Shown: positions 8,905 to 42,677 of the stretch, one piece after another
How the letters are laid out: every line of letters begins with the position of its first letter
Position numbering within the stretch: position 1 is the first letter of the stretch
Assembly: GCA_964604515.1 (NCBI GenBank)
Contig: CAZRZA010000001.1
Location: 16,243-80,242, forward strand
From: an uncultured Gammaproteobacteria bacterium
GTDB lineage: Bacteria > Patescibacteriota > Patescibacteriia > UBA1558 > GWA2-36-10
Direction of reading: 5' to 3'
DNA: 64,000 nucleotides
The notes under the pieces: generated by a model
What the model was told of the DNA's origin: nothing
Database searches by the model: none
The model's input: only the letters and a program-made list of their open reading frames with translations
Translations under genes and position numbers: made by a program

Positions 8905-11900
8905 TTAATCTACCTCTATCCAAGTATCGCTTGTATATATCTCTTCCTGATCCCACCAGTCTACAATTTTAATTTGGGGTTTATAACAAGATGTTCCTTC
9001 TTTATTTGATTTACCATCAGTACCATCACATTCAACAGCAGGGTCACCGCTATAAGTATAATTATATTGAAATACTTTATACCCCTCACTACAAGCATCA
9101 TTTGTACCACCAAAACCTTGCATATCTACACCAGTGTCTGTTGGATTATCACAAATTCCATTATCATCAGCATCAGTACACTCTAGAGAATGAGGCATTG
9201 TCCAATCAGAATTACATTTTGGTATTCTATTCTTATACTTACCAATAGTACCTGTAAAATAACCAAGGCCTTCCCAATCAACTTTTATAGCTTTTATGGG
9301 TGAAGCGTCAGGATATGCATAGTAATAGAATTTAATAGCTGCATTACCAGACTGATCATATTCTACCGTTATTCCTTCGTCTCCAAAAGTACATAAATTA
9401 CCACCACTACAATCAAGTTTATATGCTTTGGGATCATATACAGCCCCTGCATAACTATTAACAATATCACCAAGGCCGTCTGTTGAAAGATGATCGTAAG
9501 AATTACCGCTCCACTCTAAATTATATACTTGATAAAATAACTTTTTTAATTCTGTTACAATATATTCTGTCCCAAAGAAAACTGAAGAAGAATAATAAGT
9601 GTTATTAAGAACAGTACCTACTGGAACCTCAGTAATTATTGGTAAAGTATTGTCCCAATCTTGTGCTGCACCAAAATTACCATCTAATATTGTTGCGCTT
9701 CCAATCTCTGAGTATTTAAGAGCGGAAGAACCATATGATGCTGAGGAGTATGCATATGCTGACCAATTAACTATATCAGAAGTCGGATTATTTTTACTTC
9801 TCCACCAAATATCAGCTCTAACAATAGTCTTGTTATGCTCGGCAATACTGTCTACCTCTACAACTTGCCCACATTGCTGATAACAAGCATCTCCCGCACA
9901 AGTATTACCTGACAAAGAAATAGTATAACCACTTCCTGGTGTAGAGCAATCAGTTTCTGTTGTTGCTGCTAAACAGTCTTCTATTTCTGAGCTAATATCT
10001 AAGTCTGGAAAGCTCTCTGGCAATCCACTTAAGTCATATTCTGAGCAATAATCATTACTTATGGTTAAAGCCTCTATTAAGCTTACTATATCATACTCAT
10101 CTGTTCCATCGTCTTCTGTTCCGGCATTAATACTATCATAATAACCCTTATAAATAGTTTTGCTTCTCATACACTCTCTACCATAGGTTGGTCCTGAACA
10201 ATCAAGCTCATTGCACTCTTCTACTCCATCCTCTGGATTATATACATAATAATTATGATTCAATTCATTACAGTATGACTTATGACCATAAACACCCTCG
10301 TCCCAAGGACAATCCTTATGATCAGGAGTGTAACCAGGATAAGTACCATCACCACCTATACCATTTTCTAAATAAACATGTTTTGTATATACCTTGTGCT
10401 TGTTATCATCACAAGCCGGAAAACCAGACTCTTCACTTTCATCATTATGGCTACATATAATCTTATTATTATTTGTTAAACCAACTGATAAATAACTAGA
10501 ACCACTATATGTAGCATTAGGTTTTACATTTTCATCATAATAATAATATTTTAATGTCCCATCAAATAAAGCCTCAATATCACTCTCAAGACTTATGTCA
10601 CCGGTGCCAGATTCCAAATTAAAATCTTCTCTCATAAATCTACTATCACTAGCATCTCCAGGTATCAGTCTGCCACTACCTGTGGTAGGGTAAATAACTT
10701 CTTTACTAGAAACTGTATCGGTTTGATACTTTATATCTCCAATAGTATCTTTCATAAGATGCTTTAAGTAACTATTTTCAAACTCCGCAATATTAATTTT
10801 GCTACCAGCAGGAGCTACCATTAATAAATTACAATAATTATCGTTGAAATAACCACAATATATTAAATCTTCTGGTATTGTATATGCTTCACCAACTGAA
10901 CAGAAATATAAGTCTCCATCTGCATTATAATAACCAGCTTCATCATAATTATCATATAAACTATCTGTGCCACTAATGCTTTCTACCGGATACCATTGAG
11001 TGCATAAATTAGGAATACGATCATAAGAGCCACCCGCATCTGTATCTACTAATATATTAGATCCCTTAGGACTTTTATCATATTCTACACAAATACCAGG
11101 CCAATTATAATAAGTCTCAACTTTAGTTTTCTTAGAACAAGTACCAAAGCCCATCTCACCCTGACAATATACATCTTTATCTGTTGAAGTTGAACAATCT
11201 TCACCTAATAAATCAGGATCTCCTTCTGTACAAACCATATCACTAGAAGACTCTCCTTTGGCTATATATTTAGAATAATTAAGACCATAAGAAACTTTTT
11301 GATAAGTTGTTTCACAGCCACTAGGATTATCACTATTACAAATTTCAACTTGTTGATGATTTGAACTAATTTCACTGGTAGTAGGATTAATAACAGTATC
11401 TGGGAAAGGAGATTCTTCAATTGTATATCCTCTGGTACTTAAGCCATAATAAATATCATCACTATTACCTGCTTGAGGATTTAACCAACAACGCTCTTCA
11501 GAGCATTCACCATAAAAATCACCAACATTACAATCATCACCATTATTAGCAACATCAACACAAGCGGCATGTGTACCACCATTGATAACTAAACGAGGTC
11601 CATCAGTAAAATTATAAACTACCAAACCTTCAACTGGATACATATCTGGAACAGAATAACCTAAATATTCATCATCTGACCATCCTAAATAAGTACCTGC
11701 TAATCTTCCTTGATATTCTTCTTTAGTTAAAGGATCAACCTTAGTTATAATATCATCATCTAAATTAGTATAATTAGCCCATTGAGCACAACTTCTAAAA
11801 GGATCAGAGGAATCATAATTATATTCTGTACAAATACCCACTGAATCACATATATTTTTTACTTGCCCTTTATTATCTGTAACTTGAGTCAGAGACTTAC

Positions 11901-14900
11901 AAGCTAACCATTCTGAACACTTTCTATCTTTTTTAACTTTTATTAACTCATTAGAGTCACAGTCACCTACTATGGTAGGATCACAAGTACTAGGAGTCAT
12001 TGGAGTGCCAGCTGCTGTACTGCTAGCATAAGTGTCTATTGAGTCATAAATAGCTATTACTTCTGAGTGAGAAGAATTCCAATTATTAGCATTATAGAAT
12101 AACATACAACCACTATTCTGATCTACTTGACCAGTACAAGATGTTTTATCTATTTCCTCATTATCAAAATAATAATATGATTGATAATCTCCTTCTACAG
12201 TAATATCACAATTACCAGCTGTACAATCATCCATATCATTGGGATCTCTAAACTCTGTACATAAATTTTGTTCTTCCGGACAAATATTAACCCAATTATT
12301 ATTATAGTCACAGGGCTCTGGAGTATCAGTATTCAAGGTATCTATTTTCCACCAACCATCTGTCAAAGCATTATTATAGGTAATATCAGTTTCATAACGA
12401 CATAATTTATCTCCCGGATATTTAAAGTAATACATTTGTCCTTTAGAGTTTACAAAATTATCACAATATAAACCATCTTCTTCACATAGATTATCACTAT
12501 ATTGATCTGGATCATTGATACGGAAAACAGTATCATAATCAACTATAGTATCAGTAGTATCTAGTTCTGGTAATCCTAAAGCCTGACAACCCTGGTATTC
12601 TCCTGGACAATACTTATCAATATCTGGAACTAAATATTCAATACTATCTGCAGAAATAGTTAATTCTGCATTACCACTACCATATGTTTCTGCAAAAGGA
12701 CTGTCTGAATTATGAGTATTAATAACACCAGTACAACCAATAGCTTCTTCAGAACATAATTCATTAAATGATTTTAAATTATAAGCCTGCCCATTACCAT
12801 CAATATGTTCCTGACAACCAAGATAATAACCGGTATATGGTAAGTCACAAGAAGCTGGTGTAGTCCAAGAATCTTTAATCAAAGAAATATTACCAATAGT
12901 TTCTCTTAATTCTAAATTATCTATATAGATAAAATCAGCTCCATTTACTATTAATTGTAAAGACATATTATCTGCCAAAGAAGCATAATCTAATTCTGCA
13001 AAACTATCATTAGTAATTGTTAATTTATAATCTTGCCAATTAGATATTGCTATATCTTCATCAGAGTCTAAAGGAAGTTCCCCTAAGTCTATTATCTCTG
13101 CCCCTGTATCATCTAATAATTGAAGGCTAATATTATCTATAATACCTGTATTCATCATCCACCAGGATATTTCAAAGTTTTTATTTAATTGTATAGTATC
13201 TGCTATAGCTCTAGTAAAGGTACTGTTTGTGCTTAATTTTAAAGATTTACCATTATTAGATAAAGAAGCATTAGAAATATCTAAACTACCATTATTAGTA
13301 TTCCAAGAATTATAAGTACCATCTTCAAAATCATCTTTAAAGACGCTTCTTAAATTATTAGCAGAATTACCTTTATAAGCTCGACAATTGTTATGCTCTA
13401 TTGAACAACTATTACTTAAACTAGCTATGCCCTTATATAATTGTCCAGAACTATTACGACGATAATCAAGACAATTATCTGTCGCAAAAATTAATCTATT
13501 TTGTAATCTCCAATGAGTATTACCAGCTATATCAAAGAATTCACGACAATGAGGGTTATATTCTGGGTCATCATAAATATCAGCTGTATCTGCCCCACAA
13601 CTTGCTACAGTATCCGTAGTATCCTGACAAGTGTCTCCTCCAGGAGATATATTTGTACAAGGTGCTTGGTCTATATTAGATTTTAAGGCTAACCAAGTCT
13701 CTATTTGATAACCAGCGACATCAGAGCCCTCCCAAGTATAATATGTTTCTCCACTTTCTTCATAAACACATTGTCTAAGGAAAGAATAGTGTTCTGTATA
13801 TTCTCCTCCTTGACTTTGAGATCCTAAATTAGTAAATGATTCACAACCAATATATTGAGCTGGGCAAGCTATTCCTGTTTCTGGTATAAAATTATAATAC
13901 TCTACTTCATAATTACTTTCTAACTCATCAAAAGAACTTGGCATTTGAGCAAAAGAATCATAATTAAGACATTCAGCGGGACATAAATCATCTTGAGTTA
14001 TAATAGCTGGAATTAAATAACCACCATTAGAAGGAGTATAGCCCTGACAACCGACTTCTGTTGCCTGACACATTACTCTATCTTTATTTAAATTAATTTT
14101 ACCACCATCTCCATAGCTAGAATATGAAGGTGCAAAGCTATTTGCAGAAGAAACTATTTTTAATTGAATATTATCAAAATCTAAAAGACCAGTAGAAGAA
14201 TAAATATTAATACTAGCACTAGCTACATATTCATTTGTTTTAAAGTTACAATATCCTTTTTCTAAAGAAGTATTAGAAGGATTAAATTCTAATTTAATAT
14301 TATTATTACTTAAAGAACAATTACCAATGCCCTCTTCTCCTCCTGCTATACTGCTACTACTACAATCATTACTACCATCACAAGTTGCTATATCAATAAT
14401 AGCATCAGAATTAGATCCTGTTTGGGCAGCTAAAATTGCAATATTATAATTAGTATTAGGTAATAAAGTAATATTAGTATATAAGGGTGTTGTTCCTATT
14501 ATGACTTTTCCATCAAAAATACTACCCGCACCACTCCAACCAGTTGGTGTATTATTAGTCTCTCCATCAAAACTACTATTAGCTATTAAATTTGGTCCAG
14601 AGCCAGAACCAATAGCTGGTGTCATTACAATATATTCTGAACAGCCTTCATAATTATCGGGACAAGAACTAGTATTACTGTTTAAGAACAAATCATTACT
14701 TCCAATGCTTATATTACTATCTAAAACCCAGTCACCATTACTATCTTTTTCTTGAGAATAACGTAAACAACCCGCATTATTAGAGGTACAATACTCTAGA
14801 GTATCTTGAATATATGATTCTCTGCCATAACTAGCACTTTCAAAACTTAAACAGCCAGCATAATTAGGATTACAAGAATCACCTTCAAAACGCCAAATAT

Positions 14901-16647
14901 TCTCAGAACGAGTACAGTATCCATAATTAGTTTTACAATTACCCTGCTCATCTTCTTCTAAACAAGTTTTAAAGTCCGCACAATATTGAACACGACGAGA
15001 AGACAAAGAAGACTGTAATTCATTAGAATATGCCAAAGACTGACACATGGCACTAGGTTCTTTCAAAACCCAATCTTCATCTATTAAATGATAAAAAGGA
15101 TTGTGACCAGTATCATCATCACCAAAAATACAATTATAATTAGCATTGCTATTATCACTATCTTCAAAACACCCCAAAACCTCTGCTAATACCACTGGAT
15201 TGCTACCTGGACTAGCTAAAGCTGCTAATTCCCAACCAATGGGTAAGACTCCTGCTTTACGTAATTTAACTAAATTCTTATAACAAAGACCATTTTTATA
15301 ACAATCATAACTTTGATGAGTAGGATTTTCAGGAGATATCAATGGTAAATTATCATCCAGAGAGCCTTCGTCTATAAGCTGTCTAATTGTTTTCTTTTTA
15401 GTTATCAAAGAAAGAAATTCATTGTCAATAACACAATGATCTGCTTTACGAATATCTTCTTCCCCAGGACAAACAACATAATTTGTTAATAAACTATATT
15501 CTGGCATTTCTTGAAAATCAGGTGTTTTTATTTCTTTACTTATATCATAACCACGGGGTGGACGAGAAAAATCAAAACCACCTCTTAATCTGGAAACTAA
15601 ATCTTCAAAATTATCATCATCCTCATATTGATGCATGCCTAATAAACCTTTTTCTATATAAAATCTAGATAATTGACCGGCAATAGTCATAAGAAAACTC
15701 ATGCTAGCATTAGAAATAGCATTGGTTAGGGCCAAAGGAACACCTTCCCAGCTTAAGGACCTAAAATCACCTCCGGAAAAATTCTTAGCCTGTTCACTAG
15801 TTATATCACCCGAACTTTCTAATTCTTTAGCTATGGTCTCGCAACCAGTCTGCTTCTTCTCAGTAATAGGGGTTTTTTTATCTTTAAAACCTTGGCACTT
15901 AGCAAATTCCGCTTTTTTTTCTTCTAAGGTTTTATTCTTATCTTTTTTTATTTCATCTTGTAAAGATAAAAAAGTTCCTAATTCATTTTTCTTTACAGAA
16001 AACATTTTGCTAAAATATTCATTATAAGCATCCTCTTGTTCTTGTGGAGTATCATAAGCTGAAACATCTAATTTCTTTTTTGTAAAATTAACTTGTAATA
16101 TACTAGCCAATTTTTTATCTTTTAATGTTTCTCCAAATTCTTTCCAATTATTAACAACATTATTAAAATCACAATTAGGTGCTGGTGGTTTTTCGACATC
16201 TAATAATCCTAAAGTCAAAGAAAGTTTTATATCTAAAGAAGGAGAACAAAGATTAAGCTTTTCAAAACCACTATCATTTAAGCTAGAAGAAAGATCACCA
16301 ATAAAATCTCCCGCTGCAGAAGAAGCAGCATCAGCAAACAATTCAGAAGCTGTTTTTGTTTCAAATAATGGTTTACCACCCGTCTCTCCTTCTAATACTT
16401 GATTTAAAACACCGAAAGCAGCTTGTTGAGCTACATACTCTGCTGTATAATCTGTTAATTTATAAACTGTTCTTAAGGCTGCAAAATTTAAAGCATCTCC
16501 TATTTTTTCCCAAATCCATTTAGCAGAATCAACTACACCAAAAGTGGCCCATTGAGCTTTAGCTGGTTTTATATTACTAAATCCTATACCAGTTATTATA
16601 AAAAAGAATAAGGAAATACTAATTAAAATCTTTTTGGAGTTATTCAT
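8905..16647 (-). CDS. giant secreted cysteine-rich protein (2580 aa)
   Basis: Uninterrupted 7.7-kb ORF; N-terminal signal peptide (MNNSKKILISISLFFFIITGIGFSNIKPAKA/QW); >100 Cys with recurring Y-x-G-C modules (NYAGC, NYEGC, EVGCQGY, YIGCESF, YLGCQEH, YQGCQAL); no further TM segments. Confidence 0.8.
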   Translation of the reverse strand: MNNSKKILISISLFFFIITGIGFSNIKPAKAQWATFGVVDSAKWIWEKIGDALNFAALRTVYKLTDYTAEYVAQQAAFGVLNQVLEGETGGKPLFETKTASELFADAASSAAGDFIGDLSSSLNDSGFEKLNLCSPSLDIKLSLTLGLLDVEKPPAPNCDFNNVVNNWKEFGETLKDKKLASILQVNFTKKKLDVSAYDTPQEQEDAYNEYFSKMFSVKKNELGTFLSLQDEIKKDKNKTLEEKKAEFAKCQGFKDKKTPITEKKQTGCETIAKELESSGDITSEQAKNFSGGDFRSLSWEGVPLALTNAISNASMSFLMTIAGQLSRFYIEKGLLGMHQYEDDDNFEDLVSRLRGGFDFSRPPRGYDISKEIKTPDFQEMPEYSLLTNYVVCPGEEDIRKADHCVIDNEFLSLITKKKTIRQLIDEGSLDDNLPLISPENPTHQSYDCYKNGLCYKNLVKLRKAGVLPIGWELAALASPGSNPVVLAEVLGCFEDSDNSNANYNCIFGDDDTGHNPFYHLIDEDWVLKEPSAMCQSLAYSNELQSSLSSRRVQYCADFKTCLEEDEQGNCKTNYGYCTRSENIWRFEGDSCNPNYAGCLSFESASYGRESYIQDTLEYCTSNNAGCLRYSQEKDSNGDWVLDSNISIGSNDLFLNSNTSSCPDNYEGCSEYIVMTPAIGSGSGPNLIANSSFDGETNNTPTGWSGAGSIFDGKVIIGTTPLYTNITLLPNTNYNIAILAAQTGSNSDAIIDIATCDGSNDCSSSSIAGGEEGIGNCSLSNNNIKLEFNPSNTSLEKGYCNFKTNEYVASASINIYSSTGLLDFDNIQLKIVSSANSFAPSYSSYGDGGKINLNKDRVMCQATEVGCQGYTPSNGGYLIPAIITQDDLCPAECLNYDSFAQMPSSFDELESNYEVEYYNFIPETGIACPAQYIGCESFTNLGSQSQGGEYTEHYSFLRQCVYEESGETYYTWEGSDVAGYQIETWLALKSNIDQAPCTNISPGGDTCQDTTDTVASCGADTADIYDDPEYNPHCREFFDIAGNTHWRLQNRLIFATDNCLDYRRNSSGQLYKGIASLSNSCSIEHNNCRAYKGNSANNLRSVFKDDFEDGTYNSWNTNNGSLDISNASLSNNGKSLKLSTNSTFTRAIADTIQLNKNFEISWWMMNTGIIDNISLQLLDDTGAEIIDLGELPLDSDEDIAISNWQDYKLTITNDSFAELDYASLADNMSLQLIVNGADFIYIDNLELRETIGNISLIKDSWTTPASCDLPYTGYYLGCQEHIDGNGQAYNLKSFNELCSEEAIGCTGVINTHNSDSPFAETYGSGNAELTISADSIEYLVPDIDKYCPGEYQGCQALGLPELDTTDTIVDYDTVFRINDPDQYSDNLCEEDGLYCDNFVNSKGQMYYFKYPGDKLCRYETDITYNNALTDGWWKIDTLNTDTPEPCDYNNNWVNICPEEQNLCTEFRDPNDMDDCTAGNCDITVEGDYQSYYYFDNEEIDKTSCTGQVDQNSGCMLFYNANNWNSSHSEVIAIYDSIDTYASSTAAGTPMTPSTCDPTIVGDCDSNELIKVKKDRKCSEWLACKSLTQVTDNKGQVKNICDSVGICTEYNYDSSDPFRSCAQWANYTNLDDDIITKVDPLTKEEYQGRLAGTYLGWSDDEYLGYSVPDMYPVEGLVVYNFTDGPRLVINGGTHAACVDVANNGDDCNVGDFYGECSEERCWLNPQAGNSDDIYYGLSTRGYTIEESPFPDTVINPTTSEISSNHQQVEICNSDNPSGCETTYQKVSYGLNYSKYIAKGESSSDMVCTEGDPDLLGEDCSTSTDKDVYCQGEMGFGTCSKKTKVETYYNWPGICVEYDKSPKGSNILVDTDAGGSYDRIPNLCTQWYPVESISGTDSLYDNYDEAGYYNADGDLYFCSVGEAYTIPEDLIYCGYFNDNYCNLLMVAPAGSKINIAEFENSYLKHLMKDTIGDIKYQTDTVSSKEVIYPTTGSGRLIPGDASDSRFMREDFNLESGTGDISLESDIEALFDGTLKYYYYDENVKPNATYSGSSYLSVGLTNNNKIICSHNDESEESGFPACDDNKHKVYTKHVYLENGIGGDGTYPGYTPDHKDCPWDEGVYGHKSYCNELNHNYYVYNPEDGVEECNELDCSGPTYGRECMRSKTIYKGYYDSINAGTEDDGTDEYDIVSLIEALTISNDYCSEYDLSGLPESFPDLDISSEIEDCLAATTETDCSTPGSGYTISLSGNTCAGDACYQQCGQVVEVDSIAEHNKTIVRADIWWRSKNNPTSDIVNWSAYAYSSASYGSSALKYSEIGSATILDGNFGAAQDWDNTLPIITEVPVGTVLNNTYYSSSVFFGTEYIVTELKKLFYQVYNLEWSGNSYDHLSTDGLGDIVNSYAGAVYDPKAYKLDCSGGNLCTFGDEGITVEYDQSGNAAIKFYYYAYPDASPIKAIKVDWEGLGYFTGTIGKYKNRIPKCNSDWTMPHSLECTDADDNGICDNPTDTGVDMQGFGGTNDACSEGYKVFQYNYTYSGDPAVECDGTDGKSNKEGTSCYKPQIKIVDWWDQEEIYTSDTWIEVD

Positions 16648-40618: not shown

Positions 40619-40620
40619 AT

Positions 40621-40661
40621 TAAAAAAATAAGGGGTCGATTAAACATGAAAATCAACCCCC
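40621..40661 (-). terminator. rho-independent terminator/attenuator 12 nt upstream of the C39-like peptidase start codon
   Basis: Minus strand GGGGGUUGAUUUUCAUGUUUAAUCGACCCC followed by UUAUUUUUUU. Confidence 0.6.
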
Positions 40662-40760
40662 AAGCGACGATAACCCACTCGCCTATTCCAATCATGCCAA
40701 CGATCCTTGTTCTAATTTTCCTCCCAGAACGTTAATCGTAATGATTAGAGTTTTTTAAAT
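40662..40760 (-). promoter_or_regulatory. GC-enriched structured leader of unknown identity (candidate riboswitch/attenuator aptamer)
   Basis: ~45% GC island in ~25% GC background: GGGAGGAAAAUUAGAACAAGGAUCGUUGGCAUGAUUGGAAUAGGCGAGUGGGUUAUCGUCGCUUGGGGG preceding terminator; AT-rich promoter-like tract just upstream (40741-40800). Confidence 0.3.
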
Positions 40761-40800
40761 GTTCTATATAATATATATACCATATACTATATTAATAATC

Positions 40801-40830
40801 AAATAAAAAAGGACCAATCAATTGGTCCTT
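40801..40830 (-). terminator. rho-independent terminator ending a ~365-nt transcript
   Basis: aaggaccaa-tcaa-ttggtcctt (9-bp stem) followed on minus strand by UUUUUUAUUU. Confidence 0.6.
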
Positions 40831-40863
40831 AGCAGTTTCTTTCTAATTAAGATTAAATCTTAA

Positions 40864-41022
40864 TTAGAGCGGATTAGTGTTCATTGAGCCTACAATTTTA
40901 TTTAAAACAATCAATACTGTTCTAAAAAGTTCAATGATTAAATGAGCTAAACCCGGAGCAAATACCTTAAACAACATAATTAAAAATATAATATTAAAAC
41001 ATCCAAATAATGATTTAAACAT
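40864..41022 (-). CDS. candidate 52-aa hydrophobic peptide within promoter/terminator-delimited transcript
   Basis: Own translation: MFKSLFGCFNIIFLIMLFKVFAPGLAHLIIELFRTVLIVLNKIVGSMNTNPL; weak SD; below track size cutoff. Confidence 0.3.
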   Translation of the reverse strand: MFKSLFGCFNIIFLIMLFKVFAPGLAHLIIELFRTVLIVLNKIVGSMNTNPL

Positions 41023-41179
41023 ATTTTTAAACTTAGTTTCAAAGCCTTAGAAAATATTAGGATTACGACTATATTCCTAAGACATTGATTGTCTAAGATA
41101 TTCTCTTCAGGCAGGTAAGATCAACACTTTAATCTCACTATACTGAAGAGAATAATGTTTTAAAGAACTGCTTAGTTAA

Positions 41180-41208
41180 TATATATCATTCAATGCTTTT
41201 TGTGTCAA
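41180..41208 (-). promoter_or_regulatory. strong sigma70-like promoter
   Basis: Minus strand TTGACA-17nt-TATATA; transcript 5' end (~41172) can pair with segment just before terminator. Confidence 0.5.
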
Positions 41209-42127: not shown

Positions 42128-42181
42128 AATTCTTATCTTAAATACTAAGTTATTCTAGCAAATAAATAGGTAAAAATCAAG

Positions 42182-42242
42182 ACAAAAATAAAAGACGCAA
42201 CGTGCATCTCATTTTTTTAAATTATATAGATAGTTGCGTCTT
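42182..42242 (-). terminator. long-loop hairpin terminator
   Basis: 10-bp stem aagacgcaac/gttgcgtctt with ~31-nt loop, followed on minus strand by UUUAUUUUU; 55 nt upstream of dksA-like start. Confidence 0.5.
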
Positions 42243-42677
42243 AGTGACTGAAGAAAAACTATTTTTCAACTTAAGTAAGTTAAAGTTAATAAAATAATAT
42301 TTATTTTTCAATCATTAAATTGCTTACCCTGACTATAAGCTAATACACTCTACCGTTCATGGCATTGATCTCCATTCTTTTTGATGAAAATAAGCCTTTT
42401 TATTATTTTTATTTTTGTTTTCCTGAAAGACAGTCAGTTTATCTTTCTTTTTTTATATAAACAGTAAAATGCAAAGAGCTATATACTAATTTATTTAATA
42501 TACAATTCTTTTCTTTTTTAAGGTACCTCTTTATCAACATACTAAGTATATCACATATAAAGGTAAAAGTCAATAATATATTATAGCTAACTTTAGCTAA
42601 AATATAAATATATTTAAATATTAATTGACAATGTTGTCAAAAATAAGCCTAAGCTATCGACAAGTTATCCACAATAC

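What the first reader, a model, noticed from the sequence alone, without database searches (positions are those of the whole stretch)
40801..41208. Promoter- and terminator-delimited ~365-nt minus-strand transcript with 5'-3' end pairing and an embedded 52-aa hydrophobic ORF (hok-like type I toxin, small membrane protein or sRNA?)
A consensus TTGACA-17-TATATA promoter at 41180-41208 and a GC-stem/U-run terminator at 40801-40830 bracket a transcript that overlaps no annotated gene. Its first ~14 nt (CUAAGCAGUUCUUU) can pair with the segment just upstream of the terminator (AAAGAAACUGCUAAG). This resembles the fold-back architecture of hok-type mRNAs and closed sRNAs. Inside it is the ORF MFKSLFGCFNIIFLIMLFKVFAPGLAHLIIELFRTVLIVLNKIVGSMNTNPL, which is entirely hydrophobic, toxin-like, and has a weak SD. 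The window has no other 700-nt noncoding gap like this one.
Basis: partly seen in the sequence, partly recalled or inferred. Interest (0 to 1): 0.6.

Follow-up and report, generated by a model that had tools for sequence, protein, structure and literature searches.

The report
Small membrane-protein gene with switching leader
The flagged stretch is a real, previously undescribed gene unit of a group of ultra-small (Parcubacteria) bacteria: a short mRNA that encodes a conserved 52-residue membrane peptide behind a 150-base leader that evolution keeps able to fold in two mutually exclusive ways, the design used to keep small membrane peptides tightly controlled.

Summary
The promoter, terminator, 52-aa ORF and 5'-3' end pairing are all present at the stated coordinates. 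The unit recurs in about 30 distinct Parcubacteria loci, in conserved synteny (DksA/TraR, LspA, sometimes ComM, then this unit, then a C39-like peptidase). The ORF is coding: dN/dS is 0.17, third codon positions vary most, and the N-terminus is near-invariant (MFKALYGFFN.IFLLILFKMFAPG). It matches no Pfam, NCBIfam, PADLOC or PDB family.

The ~150-nt leader matches no Rfam family. It is a conserved structured RNA with two mutually exclusive folds:
- Fold A: a long hairpin P1 plus a long-range helix D:C.
- Fold B: the upper part of P1 plus a three-way junction (P4/P2/P3).

Compensatory changes maintain both folds, including coupled three-way covariation at two shared positions. Every leader found is followed 15-17 nt later by this ORF and by no other gene.

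The 5'-3' end pairing is specific to the window. No conserved antisense promoter exists. The gene is single-copy and syntenic, so hok/sok membership fails, although the mRNA logic resembles dinQ/tisB/hok mRNAs.

Best reading: a regulated small membrane-protein gene with a new bistable cis-regulatory leader. The trigger and the read-out are unresolved.

The parts
41203..41208 (-). -35 hexamer TTGACA
   Evidence: Read. TTGAC(A/T) is conserved at the same place in relatives.
41180..41188 (-). Extended -10, TGaTATATA, 17-nt spacer from the -35
   Evidence: Read. The TG.TATA(A/T)(A/G) block is conserved in alignment A4. Sense-strand promoters cluster 160-170 nt upstream of the AUG.
40803..41173 (-). 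Predicted monocistronic transcript of about 370 nt. The TSS is inferred from the position of the -10; the 3' end is in the terminator U-run.
   Evidence: MFE -106.9 kcal/mol, z -7.5. No transcript data are available.
41160..41168 (-). Conserved 5' block GUUC(U/A)UUAA; no pairing partner found
   Evidence: Alignments A3 and A4. In the window only, it is part of the segment that pairs with the 3' end.
41100..41153 (-). Hairpin P1. The upper part P1a is 41147-41106. The lower part P1b pairs AUUCUC (41153-41148) with GAGAAU (41105-41100).
   Evidence: P1a: 18 pairs, 15 with changes on both sides, 90.5% paired. P1b: 98.3% paired, 3 of 6 pairs compensatory.
41098..41105 (-). Shared strand GAGAAUAU. 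It pairs either with 41153-41148 (P1b, fold A) or with 41057-41050 (P4, fold B).
   Evidence: Coupled covariation at A7 columns 3/63/137, 6/60/140, 7/59/142 and 5/61/139.
41080..41094 (-). Hairpin P2 (AGACA...UGUCU), part of fold B
   Evidence: 7 pairs, 6 with changes on both sides.
41059..41078 (-). Hairpin P3 (AGGA...UCCU) with the conserved loop ..AUAGUCG.. (the GUC is invariant), part of fold B
   Evidence: 6 pairs, 5 with changes on both sides. G/U/C are invariant in alignments A3-A5. The stem is weak in the window's own copy.
41075..41083 (-). Strand D, GUCUUAGGA. It overlaps the P2 3' strand and the P3 5' strand, and pairs with 41052-41044 in fold A.
   Evidence: D:C helix: 9 pairs, 86.6% paired. 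Column 103:149 shows GC 7 / UA 7 / AU 6. There is coupled covariation at columns 125/105/146.
41044..41057 (-). Strand C, AUAUUUUCUAAGGC. Its 5' part (41057-41050) is the P4 3' strand in fold B. Its 3' part (41052-41044) pairs with strand D in fold A.
   Evidence: P4: 8 pairs, 90.9% paired, 5 compensatory. D:C.
41037..41047 (-). Near-invariant block AGGCYUUGNA(A/G), 15-17 nt upstream of the AUG. Its role is unknown.
   Evidence: Invariant G, G, C, U, G and A in alignments A3-A5. No supported pairing partner was found.
40864..41022 (-). Gene for a 52-aa hydrophobic protein, MFKSLFGCFNIIFLIMLFKVFAPGLAHLIIELFRTVLIVLNKIVGSMNTNPL
   Evidence: Conserved family. dN/dS is 0.17, against 0.74 and 3.2 in the other two frames; entropy by codon position is 0.84 / 0.34 / 1.34. 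AlphaFold2 predicts one long helix, residues 2-49, pLDDT 82.6.
40844..40866 (-). Perfect hairpin that includes the stop codon (UAAUUAAGAU-UUA-AUCUUAAUUA)
   Evidence: Also present in the closest relative, L029. Not examined further.
40828..40842 (-). 3' segment AAAGAAACUGCUAAG, complementary to the 5' end (41175-41162)
   Evidence: This pairing is specific to the window and is not conserved.
40803..40830 (-). Intrinsic terminator (9-bp stem, 4-nt loop, U-run)
   Evidence: A terminator is present at the same position in all relatives.

Best explanation
This is a self-contained transcription unit of a Parcubacteria (CPR) chromosome. A sigma-70-type promoter drives a monocistronic mRNA of about 370 nt, which ends at an intrinsic terminator. 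The mRNA encodes a genuine, vertically inherited 52-aa membrane protein of unknown function. The protein belongs to a narrow family with the hallmark ...LFK(M/I)FAPG....

A leader of about 150 nt precedes the ORF and acts as a bistable RNA.
- Fold A is the more stable, default state. The strand GAGAAU closes the bottom of a long hairpin (P1), and the strand GUCUUAGGA pairs with UUCUAAGGC (helix D:C).
- In fold B the same GAGAAU(AU) strand pairs instead with the downstream AUAUUUUC (P4). This closes a three-way junction of two hairpins, P2 and P3, whose loop AAUAGUCGA is conserved. It also releases the AU-rich 5' end of the mRNA.

Shown here: the gene is coding; both folds are maintained by compensatory and coupled substitutions; and the leader occurs only in front of this gene.

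Inferred: the switch gates expression of the peptide, through translation or mRNA stability, and is off by default. Inferred triggers are something that removes or masks the 5' strand (5' processing, or a trans-acting RNA or protein) or something that stabilises the junction (a ligand). This would be analogous to the 5'-processing-activated mRNAs of dinQ and tisB.
For: Coding:
- The peptide aligns without gaps over 41 residues in 29 distinct loci, with dN/dS 0.17 and variation concentrated at third codon positions.
- The family is narrow: 20 clusters among 5.8 billion sequences and 20 representatives among 1.84 billion.

Synteny:
- DksA/TraR, LspA, (ComM), the unit, then a C39_2 peptidase, with HU, YmdB and RNase Y on the opposite strand.

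Leader:
- It matches no Rfam family at the gathering threshold or at E <= 10.
- A leader-only DNA pattern is expected 0.00 times per window.
- That pattern found 65 metagenome loci. The covariance model R1 accepted 21 of these 65 (42 hits of >=63.7 bits in all, counting the window and the loci fetched earlier), and each is followed by the ORF.

Fold B: 87.2% of cells paired, against 72.9% in shuffles and about 44% with slid partners. 31 of 39 pairs have changes on both sides.

Fold A-specific helices: 91.3% paired, against about 50% with slid partners.

Coupled covariation:
- B-strand column 63 changes U to C in three lineages. The C-strand partner becomes G in all three, and the A-strand partner becomes G in two.
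- Column 105 changes G to A in at least three lineages, and both partners become U.

Energetics:
- Fold A is about 13-14 kcal/mol more stable.
- Blocking the first 9 nt makes fold B the MFE structure.

Precedent: in dinQ, four sequence elements form mutually exclusive pairings, and removal of the 5' end activates translation (PMC5066626).
Against: - No expression data exist.
- The read-out is not visible in silico. Predicted accessibility of the start region is the same in both folds (0.359 against 0.359).
- The candidate anti-start pairing GGACA:UGUUU has no covariation and a probability near zero.
- The leader contains no internal terminator.
- Fold B is far less stable and forms later during transcription, so an unknown factor has to be invoked.
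- The alignment used for the counts was fitted to fold B, which biases the counts toward it.
- The independent events behind the coupled covariation are few, 3-5 lineages.
- The function of the peptide is unknown.
Confidence: 0.55

Rival explanations
1. It is a type I toxin-antitoxin locus. The hydrophobic peptide would be a membrane toxin whose mRNA is kept inert by folding, as for hok, tisB, dinQ or aapA1, and an RNA antitoxin not yet recognised would neutralise it.
For: - The ORF is small and hydrophobic.
- The unit is monocistronic with a strong promoter and a terminator.
- The leader has mutually exclusive folds with coupled covariation, and the default state is closed.
- In the window, the 5' and 3' ends pair.
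- Known type I toxin mRNAs use the same kind of logic (PMC5066626; listing).
Against: - The peptide matches no toxin family.
- The 5'-3' pairing is not conserved.
- No conserved antisense promoter exists.
- There is no conserved complementarity to the neighbouring ~400-nt RNA.
- The gene is single-copy and lies at the same chromosomal place in genomes whose flanking proteins are only 46-59% identical.
- It is absent from viral contigs.
- Many residues are invariant (F2, F9, F13, F18, K19, F21, N41), and the C-terminal tail is polar or acidic rather than basic. This suggests a specific partner rather than generic membrane damage (inference).
Confidence: 0.17
2. The leader is a metabolite- or ion-sensing riboswitch. 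The three-way junction (P4/P2/P3, with its conserved loop and junction nucleotides) would be the aptamer, and P1b against P4 would be the expression platform.
For: - The conserved three-way junction shows covariation in all its helices and has sequence-invariant unpaired blocks.
- An alternative pairing competes for one strand of the closing helix.
- A precedent exists for small membrane-associated proteins under riboswitch control (bioRxiv 10.64898/2026.06.10.731418; abstract seen).
Against: - The leader is associated with one gene family only.
- Neither fold provides a terminator or occludes the start region.
- Fold B is about 13 kcal/mol less stable, and the competing 5' strand is transcribed first. 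This is hard to overcome by ligand binding alone.
- The distribution is narrow.
Confidence: 0.15
3. It is a dual-function RNA. The structured 5' domain would act in trans as a base-pairing or protein-binding sRNA, while the 3' half encodes the peptide, as in RNAIII/hld, SgrS/SgrT or SR1/SR1P (comparison from my own knowledge).
For: The transcript is discrete and highly structured. The sequence-invariant single-stranded blocks (GUUCUUUAA, AAUAGUCGA, AGGCYUUG) have no intramolecular partner.
Against: No target was sought or found. The leader is always immediately upstream of the ORF at a fixed 15-17-nt spacing, as expected for cis control.
Confidence: 0.08
4. It is a non-coding RNA, and the ORF arises by chance in AT-rich sequence.
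For: AT-rich DNA readily gives F/I/L/K/N-rich ORFs. There is no SD.
Against: dN/dS is 0.17 in this frame only. The reading frame and the start codon are conserved in all 29 distinct loci. SD motifs are rare genome-wide.
Confidence: 0.02

Closest known systems
dinQ/agrB and tisB/istR-1 type I toxin mRNAs of E. coli (5'-processing-activated; PMC5066626)
   Same: Both have a small hydrophobic inner-membrane peptide and a long structured 5' UTR. In both, four sequence elements form mutually exclusive pairings, and the full-length form is locked by a 5' stem. Here, masking the 5' strand in silico flips the leader to the other fold.
   Different: - No antitoxin RNA was found.
- There is no SD hairpin, and the organism largely lacks SD motifs.
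- The start region is not predicted to be occluded.
- The gene is syntenic and single-copy across a broad clade.
- There is no sequence similarity to these systems.
hok/sok (plasmid R1 and chromosomal hok family)
   Same: The peptide is about 50 aa and hydrophobic. In hok mRNAs, as recalled from the literature rather than tested here, coupled covariations support alternative folds. In the window, the 5' and 3' ends can pair like the hok fbi element.
   Different: - The end pairing is not conserved.
- There is no Hok_Gef match.
- There is no conserved overlapping mok-like frame.
- There is no Sok-like antisense promoter.
- The unit is not on mobile elements.
Riboswitches with three-way-junction aptamers and strand-exchange expression platforms
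   Same: The unit has a conserved junction with covarying helices and invariant unpaired nucleotides, and one strand is shared between two helices.
   Different: No ligand is known. Only one downstream gene family is associated with it. There is no terminator or start-occlusion read-out. It matches no Rfam family.
Dual-function sRNAs that encode small peptides (RNAIII/delta-haemolysin, SgrS/SgrT, SR1/SR1P)
   Same: It is a promoter- and terminator-delimited RNA of 200-500 nt that combines a structured domain with a small ORF.
   Different: No trans target is known, and the structured domain sits exactly where a cis-acting leader would.

Membership tests
hok/sok-type (type I) toxin-antitoxin | Small (<=60 aa) hydrophobic, membrane-targeted peptide | tested here: met
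   The ORF is 52 aa. AlphaFold2 predicts a single long helix.
hok/sok-type (type I) toxin-antitoxin | Sequence membership in a known toxin family (Hok_Gef, Ldr, Fst, TisB, and others) | tested here: not met
   No Pfam, NCBIfam or PADLOC match, and no PDB match better than E 9.8.
hok/sok-type (type I) toxin-antitoxin | Antisense or nearby RNA antitoxin | tested here: not met
   No positionally conserved antisense promoter in 31 loci. No complementarity to the neighbouring conserved RNA is shared by 3 or more of 6 genomes. A trans-encoded antitoxin elsewhere in the genome cannot be excluded.
hok/sok-type (type I) toxin-antitoxin | Conserved 5'-3' fold-back (fbi) that locks the full-length mRNA | tested here: not met
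   The window gives z = -2.6, but the mean z over 31 loci is +0.23 and the median is +0.73.
hok/sok-type (type I) toxin-antitoxin | Mutually exclusive mRNA folds supported by coupled covariation | tested here: met
hok/sok-type (type I) toxin-antitoxin | Patchy, multicopy or mobile-element distribution | tested here: not met
   One copy in the 64-kb window. Synteny is conserved. There is no true hit in viral contigs.
hok/sok-type (type I) toxin-antitoxin | Toxicity on expression | not testable with these tools
   This needs expression in a host.
Riboswitch | Conserved structured 5' leader with covariation-supported helices | tested here: met
   31 of 39 pairs have changes on both sides; 87% paired against 44% with slid partners.
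Riboswitch | Expression platform with an alternative pairing | tested here: met
   P1b and P4 share the strand GAGAAU.
Riboswitch | Read-out element (leader terminator or occlusion of the start region) | tested here: not met
   There is no U-run after P1. Start-region accessibility is 0.359 in both folds.
Riboswitch | Ligand binding | not testable with these tools
   This needs in-line probing or ITC.
Riboswitch | Membership in a described RNA family | tested here: not met
   Rfam 15 gives nothing at gathering score, and only noise at E <= 10.
Non-coding sRNA | No selection on any reading frame | tested here: not met
   dN/dS is 0.17 in the ORF frame, against 0.74 and 3.2 in the other frames.

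The most novel reading that the evidence does not exclude
The leader would be a new class of ligand-sensing riboswitch confined to Parcubacteria, organisms with almost no known regulatory RNAs. Its three-way junction would be the aptamer, and the 52-aa protein would be a new regulated component of the cell envelope or of a transport or host-interaction system.
Probability: 0.15. Interest if true: 0.75.

Novelty: new member of a known kind. Interest (0 to 1): 0.55.

Why it matters
Patescibacteria/CPR bacteria have tiny genomes, are mostly uncultured, and have very few documented regulatory RNAs or characterised small proteins.

This locus gives a concrete and testable example. It combines an undescribed, strongly conserved small membrane-protein family with an undescribed leader RNA. 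The two competing folds of the leader are both preserved by evolution, which is the signature of an RNA switch.

The result also shows that the mRNA logic known from enterobacterial type I toxins (dinQ, tisB, hok) occurs in a deeply divergent phylum on what looks like a housekeeping gene. Alternatively, a type I toxin has become a fixed chromosomal resident there. Either outcome would be informative.

The covariance model and the alignments made here allow the family to be annotated in metagenomes.

Tried and rejected
- **Known RNA genes.** Rfam found only a tRNA-Ile elsewhere in the window. ARAGORN found no tmRNA.
- **5'-3' end pairing as a family feature.** Rejected.
- **Antisense promoter or antitoxin.** None is conserved. 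The antisense matches to the covariance model come only from the near-palindromic P1 hairpin.
- **P2 5' strand (GGACA) as an anti-start element.** It can pair in 96% of cells, but shuffles give 95%, and its probability in constrained folding is about zero.
- **Different start-region accessibility in the two folds.** None was found.
- **Pairing of the AGGCYUUGAAG block with the P1 5' strand, or in a local hairpin P5.** Inspection of the alignments shows no covariation.
- **The leader in front of other genes.** None was found. The other 44 pattern hits in metagenomes and the one viral hit fail the covariance model.
- **The neighbouring ~400-nt conserved RNA as a trans partner.** No conserved complementarity. 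An unrestricted RNAduplex run was uninformative.
- **Protein family, defence-system and structure searches.** All empty.
- **Fold search with the AlphaFold model.** Not run, because a single helix cannot give a meaningful match.
- **Bacteriocin precursor for the adjacent C39-like peptidase.** Considered and set aside. There is no double-glycine leader. The conserved part of the peptide is the hydrophobic N-terminus. In some loci the peptidase is not adjacent.
- **In-frame N-terminal extensions called in some database entries.** They are not conserved.

Full report
**Observation.** On the minus strand, TTGACA (41208-41203), a 17-nt spacer and TGaTATATA (41188-41180) form a near-consensus extended -10 promoter. 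A 9-bp GC-containing stem with a U-run lies at 40830-40803. Between them lies the quoted 52-aa ORF, 41022-40864. The predicted RNA folds far better than shuffled versions: -106.9 kcal/mol, z = -7.5. Taken alone, that duplex gives -13.6 kcal/mol, z = -2.6.

**Context.** The window has about 25% G+C. The flanking genes encode a DksA/TraR zinc-finger protein and signal peptidase II upstream, and a secreted C39-like peptidase downstream. Relatives of the peptidase come from Parcubacteria/Patescibacteria MAGs. Six of these loci carry a nucleotide-level homologue of the flagged region just upstream of the peptidase gene.

**The ORF is a gene.**
- All homologous regions keep the reading frame. The peptides read MF(K/R)AL.GFF(N/Q).IF(L/M)LILFK(M/I)F(A/T)PG..., followed by a second hydrophobic stretch, an invariant Asn and a variable polar tail.
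- Over the 41 gap-free codons of 29 distinct loci, entropy at codon positions 1/2/3 is 0.84/0.34/1.34. The median dN/dS is 0.17, against 0.74 and 3.2 in the other two frames.
- The family is narrow. A profile search of 5.8 billion proteins found 20 clusters. An exhaustive HMMER search of 1.84 billion representatives also found 20, nearly all of 40-67 aa.
- No source names the family, and it matches nothing in Pfam, NCBIfam, PADLOC or the PDB.
- AlphaFold2 predicts one long helix, residues 2-49, pLDDT 82.6.
- The missing SD says nothing, because only 8 of 53 genes in the window have an SD-like motif.

**Synteny.** In every locus with enough flank, the order is DksA/TraR, LspA, often ComM, then a gap of about 200 nt, the small ORF and a terminator. 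A C39_2 peptidase usually follows, with an HD protein, HU, YmdB and RNase Y on the opposite strand. All loci have an intrinsic terminator 30-70 nt after the stop codon. Many have a promoter scoring >=10/12 whose -10 ends 160-170 nt before the AUG. The unit is therefore a monocistronic, vertically inherited chromosomal gene. The window holds one copy.

**The leader.** The roughly 150 nt between the inferred start site and the AUG are as conserved as the ORF. A pattern built from leader sequence only is expected 0.00 times in shuffled windows. It hit 65 metagenome loci. Covariance model R1 accepts 21 of them, as well as the loci fetched earlier (42 hits of >=63.7 bits). It rejects the rest, the more distant peptidase loci L008-L021 and the single viral hit. 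Every accepted leader is followed 15-17 nt later by the small ORF, and no leader precedes any other gene. No Rfam family matches the window or the relatives.

**Two folds.** All counts below use the model-guided alignment of 29 distinct leaders (A7).
- *Fold B* consists of the upper P1 hairpin plus a three-way junction. P4 (GAGAAUAU with AUAUUCUC) closes the junction, which holds hairpin P2 and hairpin P3 with the conserved loop AAUAGUCGA. 87.2% of cells are paired, against 72.9% in shuffles and 38-47% with slid partners. 31 of 39 pairs show changes on both sides, and every helix is supported.
- *Fold A-specific helices* are P1b (AUUCUC with GAGAAU, which extends P1) and D:C (GUCUUAGGA with UCCUAAGGC). 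RNAalifold predicted these independently. 91.3% of cells are paired, against 40-55% with slid partners. P1b is 98.3% paired.
- *The folds exclude each other.* P1b and P4 use the same GAGAAU strand. D:C uses the 3' strand of P2 and the 5' strand of P3.
- *Coupled covariation.* Changes in the shared strands are answered in both partners. Column 63 changes U to C in three lineages. Its P4 partner (column 137) becomes G in all three, and its P1b partner (column 3) becomes G in two. Column 60 changes G to A in L029, and both partners become U. Column 105 changes G to A in at least three lineages, and both the P3 partner and the D:C partner become U. Single events at columns 59 and 61 are compensated in one partner and tolerated as G-U in the other. 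No such change leaves a mismatch in either fold.
- *Caveats.* The alignment was fitted to fold B, and the independent events are few.

**How it may work.**
- ViennaRNA puts fold A 13-14 kcal/mol below fold B. The P1 strands are also transcribed first, so fold A is the default.
- If the first 9 nt of the P1b 5' strand are made unavailable, the MFE structure becomes fold B in the four leaders tested (the full three-way junction in L028, L023 and the window; without upper P1 in L079).
- This matches the logic shown experimentally for dinQ. There, four elements form mutually exclusive pairings, and removal of the first 44 nt turns an inert mRNA into a translatable one (PMC5066626).
- The read-out could not be identified. 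The start region is equally accessible in both folds. The attractive GGACA:AUGUUU pairing has no covariation. The leader has no terminator.
- Three sequence-invariant unpaired blocks have no partner: GUUC(U/A)UUAA at the 5' end, the P3 loop, and AGGCYUUGNA before the AUG. They may be sites for a protein, the ribosome, a ligand or a trans-acting RNA.
- My commitment is a default-off conformational gate on expression of the peptide. I give this about 0.55, conditional on the gene and the leader being real, which I put at about 0.9.

**Comparison with known systems.**
- Membership in hok/sok or any type I TA family is not supported. There is no toxin-family match. The fold-back is not conserved (mean z +0.23 over 31 loci). 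There is no conserved antisense promoter. There is no conserved complementarity to the neighbouring RNA. The gene is single-copy, syntenic and not on mobile elements.
- "Works like a type I toxin mRNA" remains a fair description of the leader.
- A riboswitch reading remains possible, but no ligand or read-out is known, and only one gene family is associated with the leader.
- The many invariant residues and the non-basic tail of the peptide suggest a specific partner in the membrane (inference).
- Literature searches found no description of this RNA or protein.

**Verdict.** The finding is a real and undescribed gene unit. It combines a new small membrane-protein family with a new bistable leader RNA, in a phylum poor in known regulators. 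In kind it belongs with structured, switchable leaders of small hydrophobic peptides. As a family it is new.

Noticed in passing
window 42128-42677 (minus strand); RNA body about 42185-42545: The 550-nt gap upstream of the DksA/TraR gene is conserved at nucleotide level in at least 9 related loci (nhmmer E 1e-19 to 1e-47). It starts with a perfect DnaA-box-like TGTGGATAA, followed by a conserved TTGAC-17-TGATATACT promoter, a body of about 400 nt and an intrinsic terminator (42210-42192). The window's copy has MFE z = -4.9. RNAalifold on 6 sequences gives 75 pairs, 36 of them with compensatory changes. There is no ORF longer than 44 aa, no Rfam match even at E <= 5, and no tmRNA. This looks like a second, larger unannotated structured RNA gene of this clade.
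   Followed up: partly
window 40619-40795 (minus strand): A second unit lies between the small-ORF terminator and the C39-like peptidase gene. It has a promoter-like TTGATT-17-TATATA and a structured leader of about 150 nt (z = -4.2). The leader ends in a terminator-like hairpin, GGGGUUGAUU...AAUCGACCCC plus UUAUUUUUUU, immediately before the AUG. It is conserved in L029, with compensatory changes in that stem. It matches no Rfam family. It is a candidate transcription-attenuation leader.
   Followed up: partly
window, all genes: Only 8 of 53 likely genes have any SD-like motif within 20 nt of the start. Start regions are A/U-rich instead, so this organism seems to rely mostly on SD-independent initiation.
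   Followed up: partly
L028, L032, L031, L022, L023 and other loci (peptide C-termini); absent in the window: One subclade of the peptide family ends in a conserved (T/E/D)FP(E/D/N/A)G(F/L/I) motif. The copies in the window and in L029 lack it. L001 has a premature stop after residue 41.
   Followed up: no
window 40844-40866 (minus strand); L029 1508-1535: A perfect 10-bp hairpin includes the stop codon of the small ORF (UAAUUAAGAU-UUA-AUCUUAAUUA). The closest relative shares it. Other relatives have short hairpins of the form UAGCC...GGCUA at the stop codon.
   Followed up: no
window 8905-16647 (minus strand): A very large ORF of 2580 aa lies in this small-genome organism. It was not examined.
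   Followed up: no
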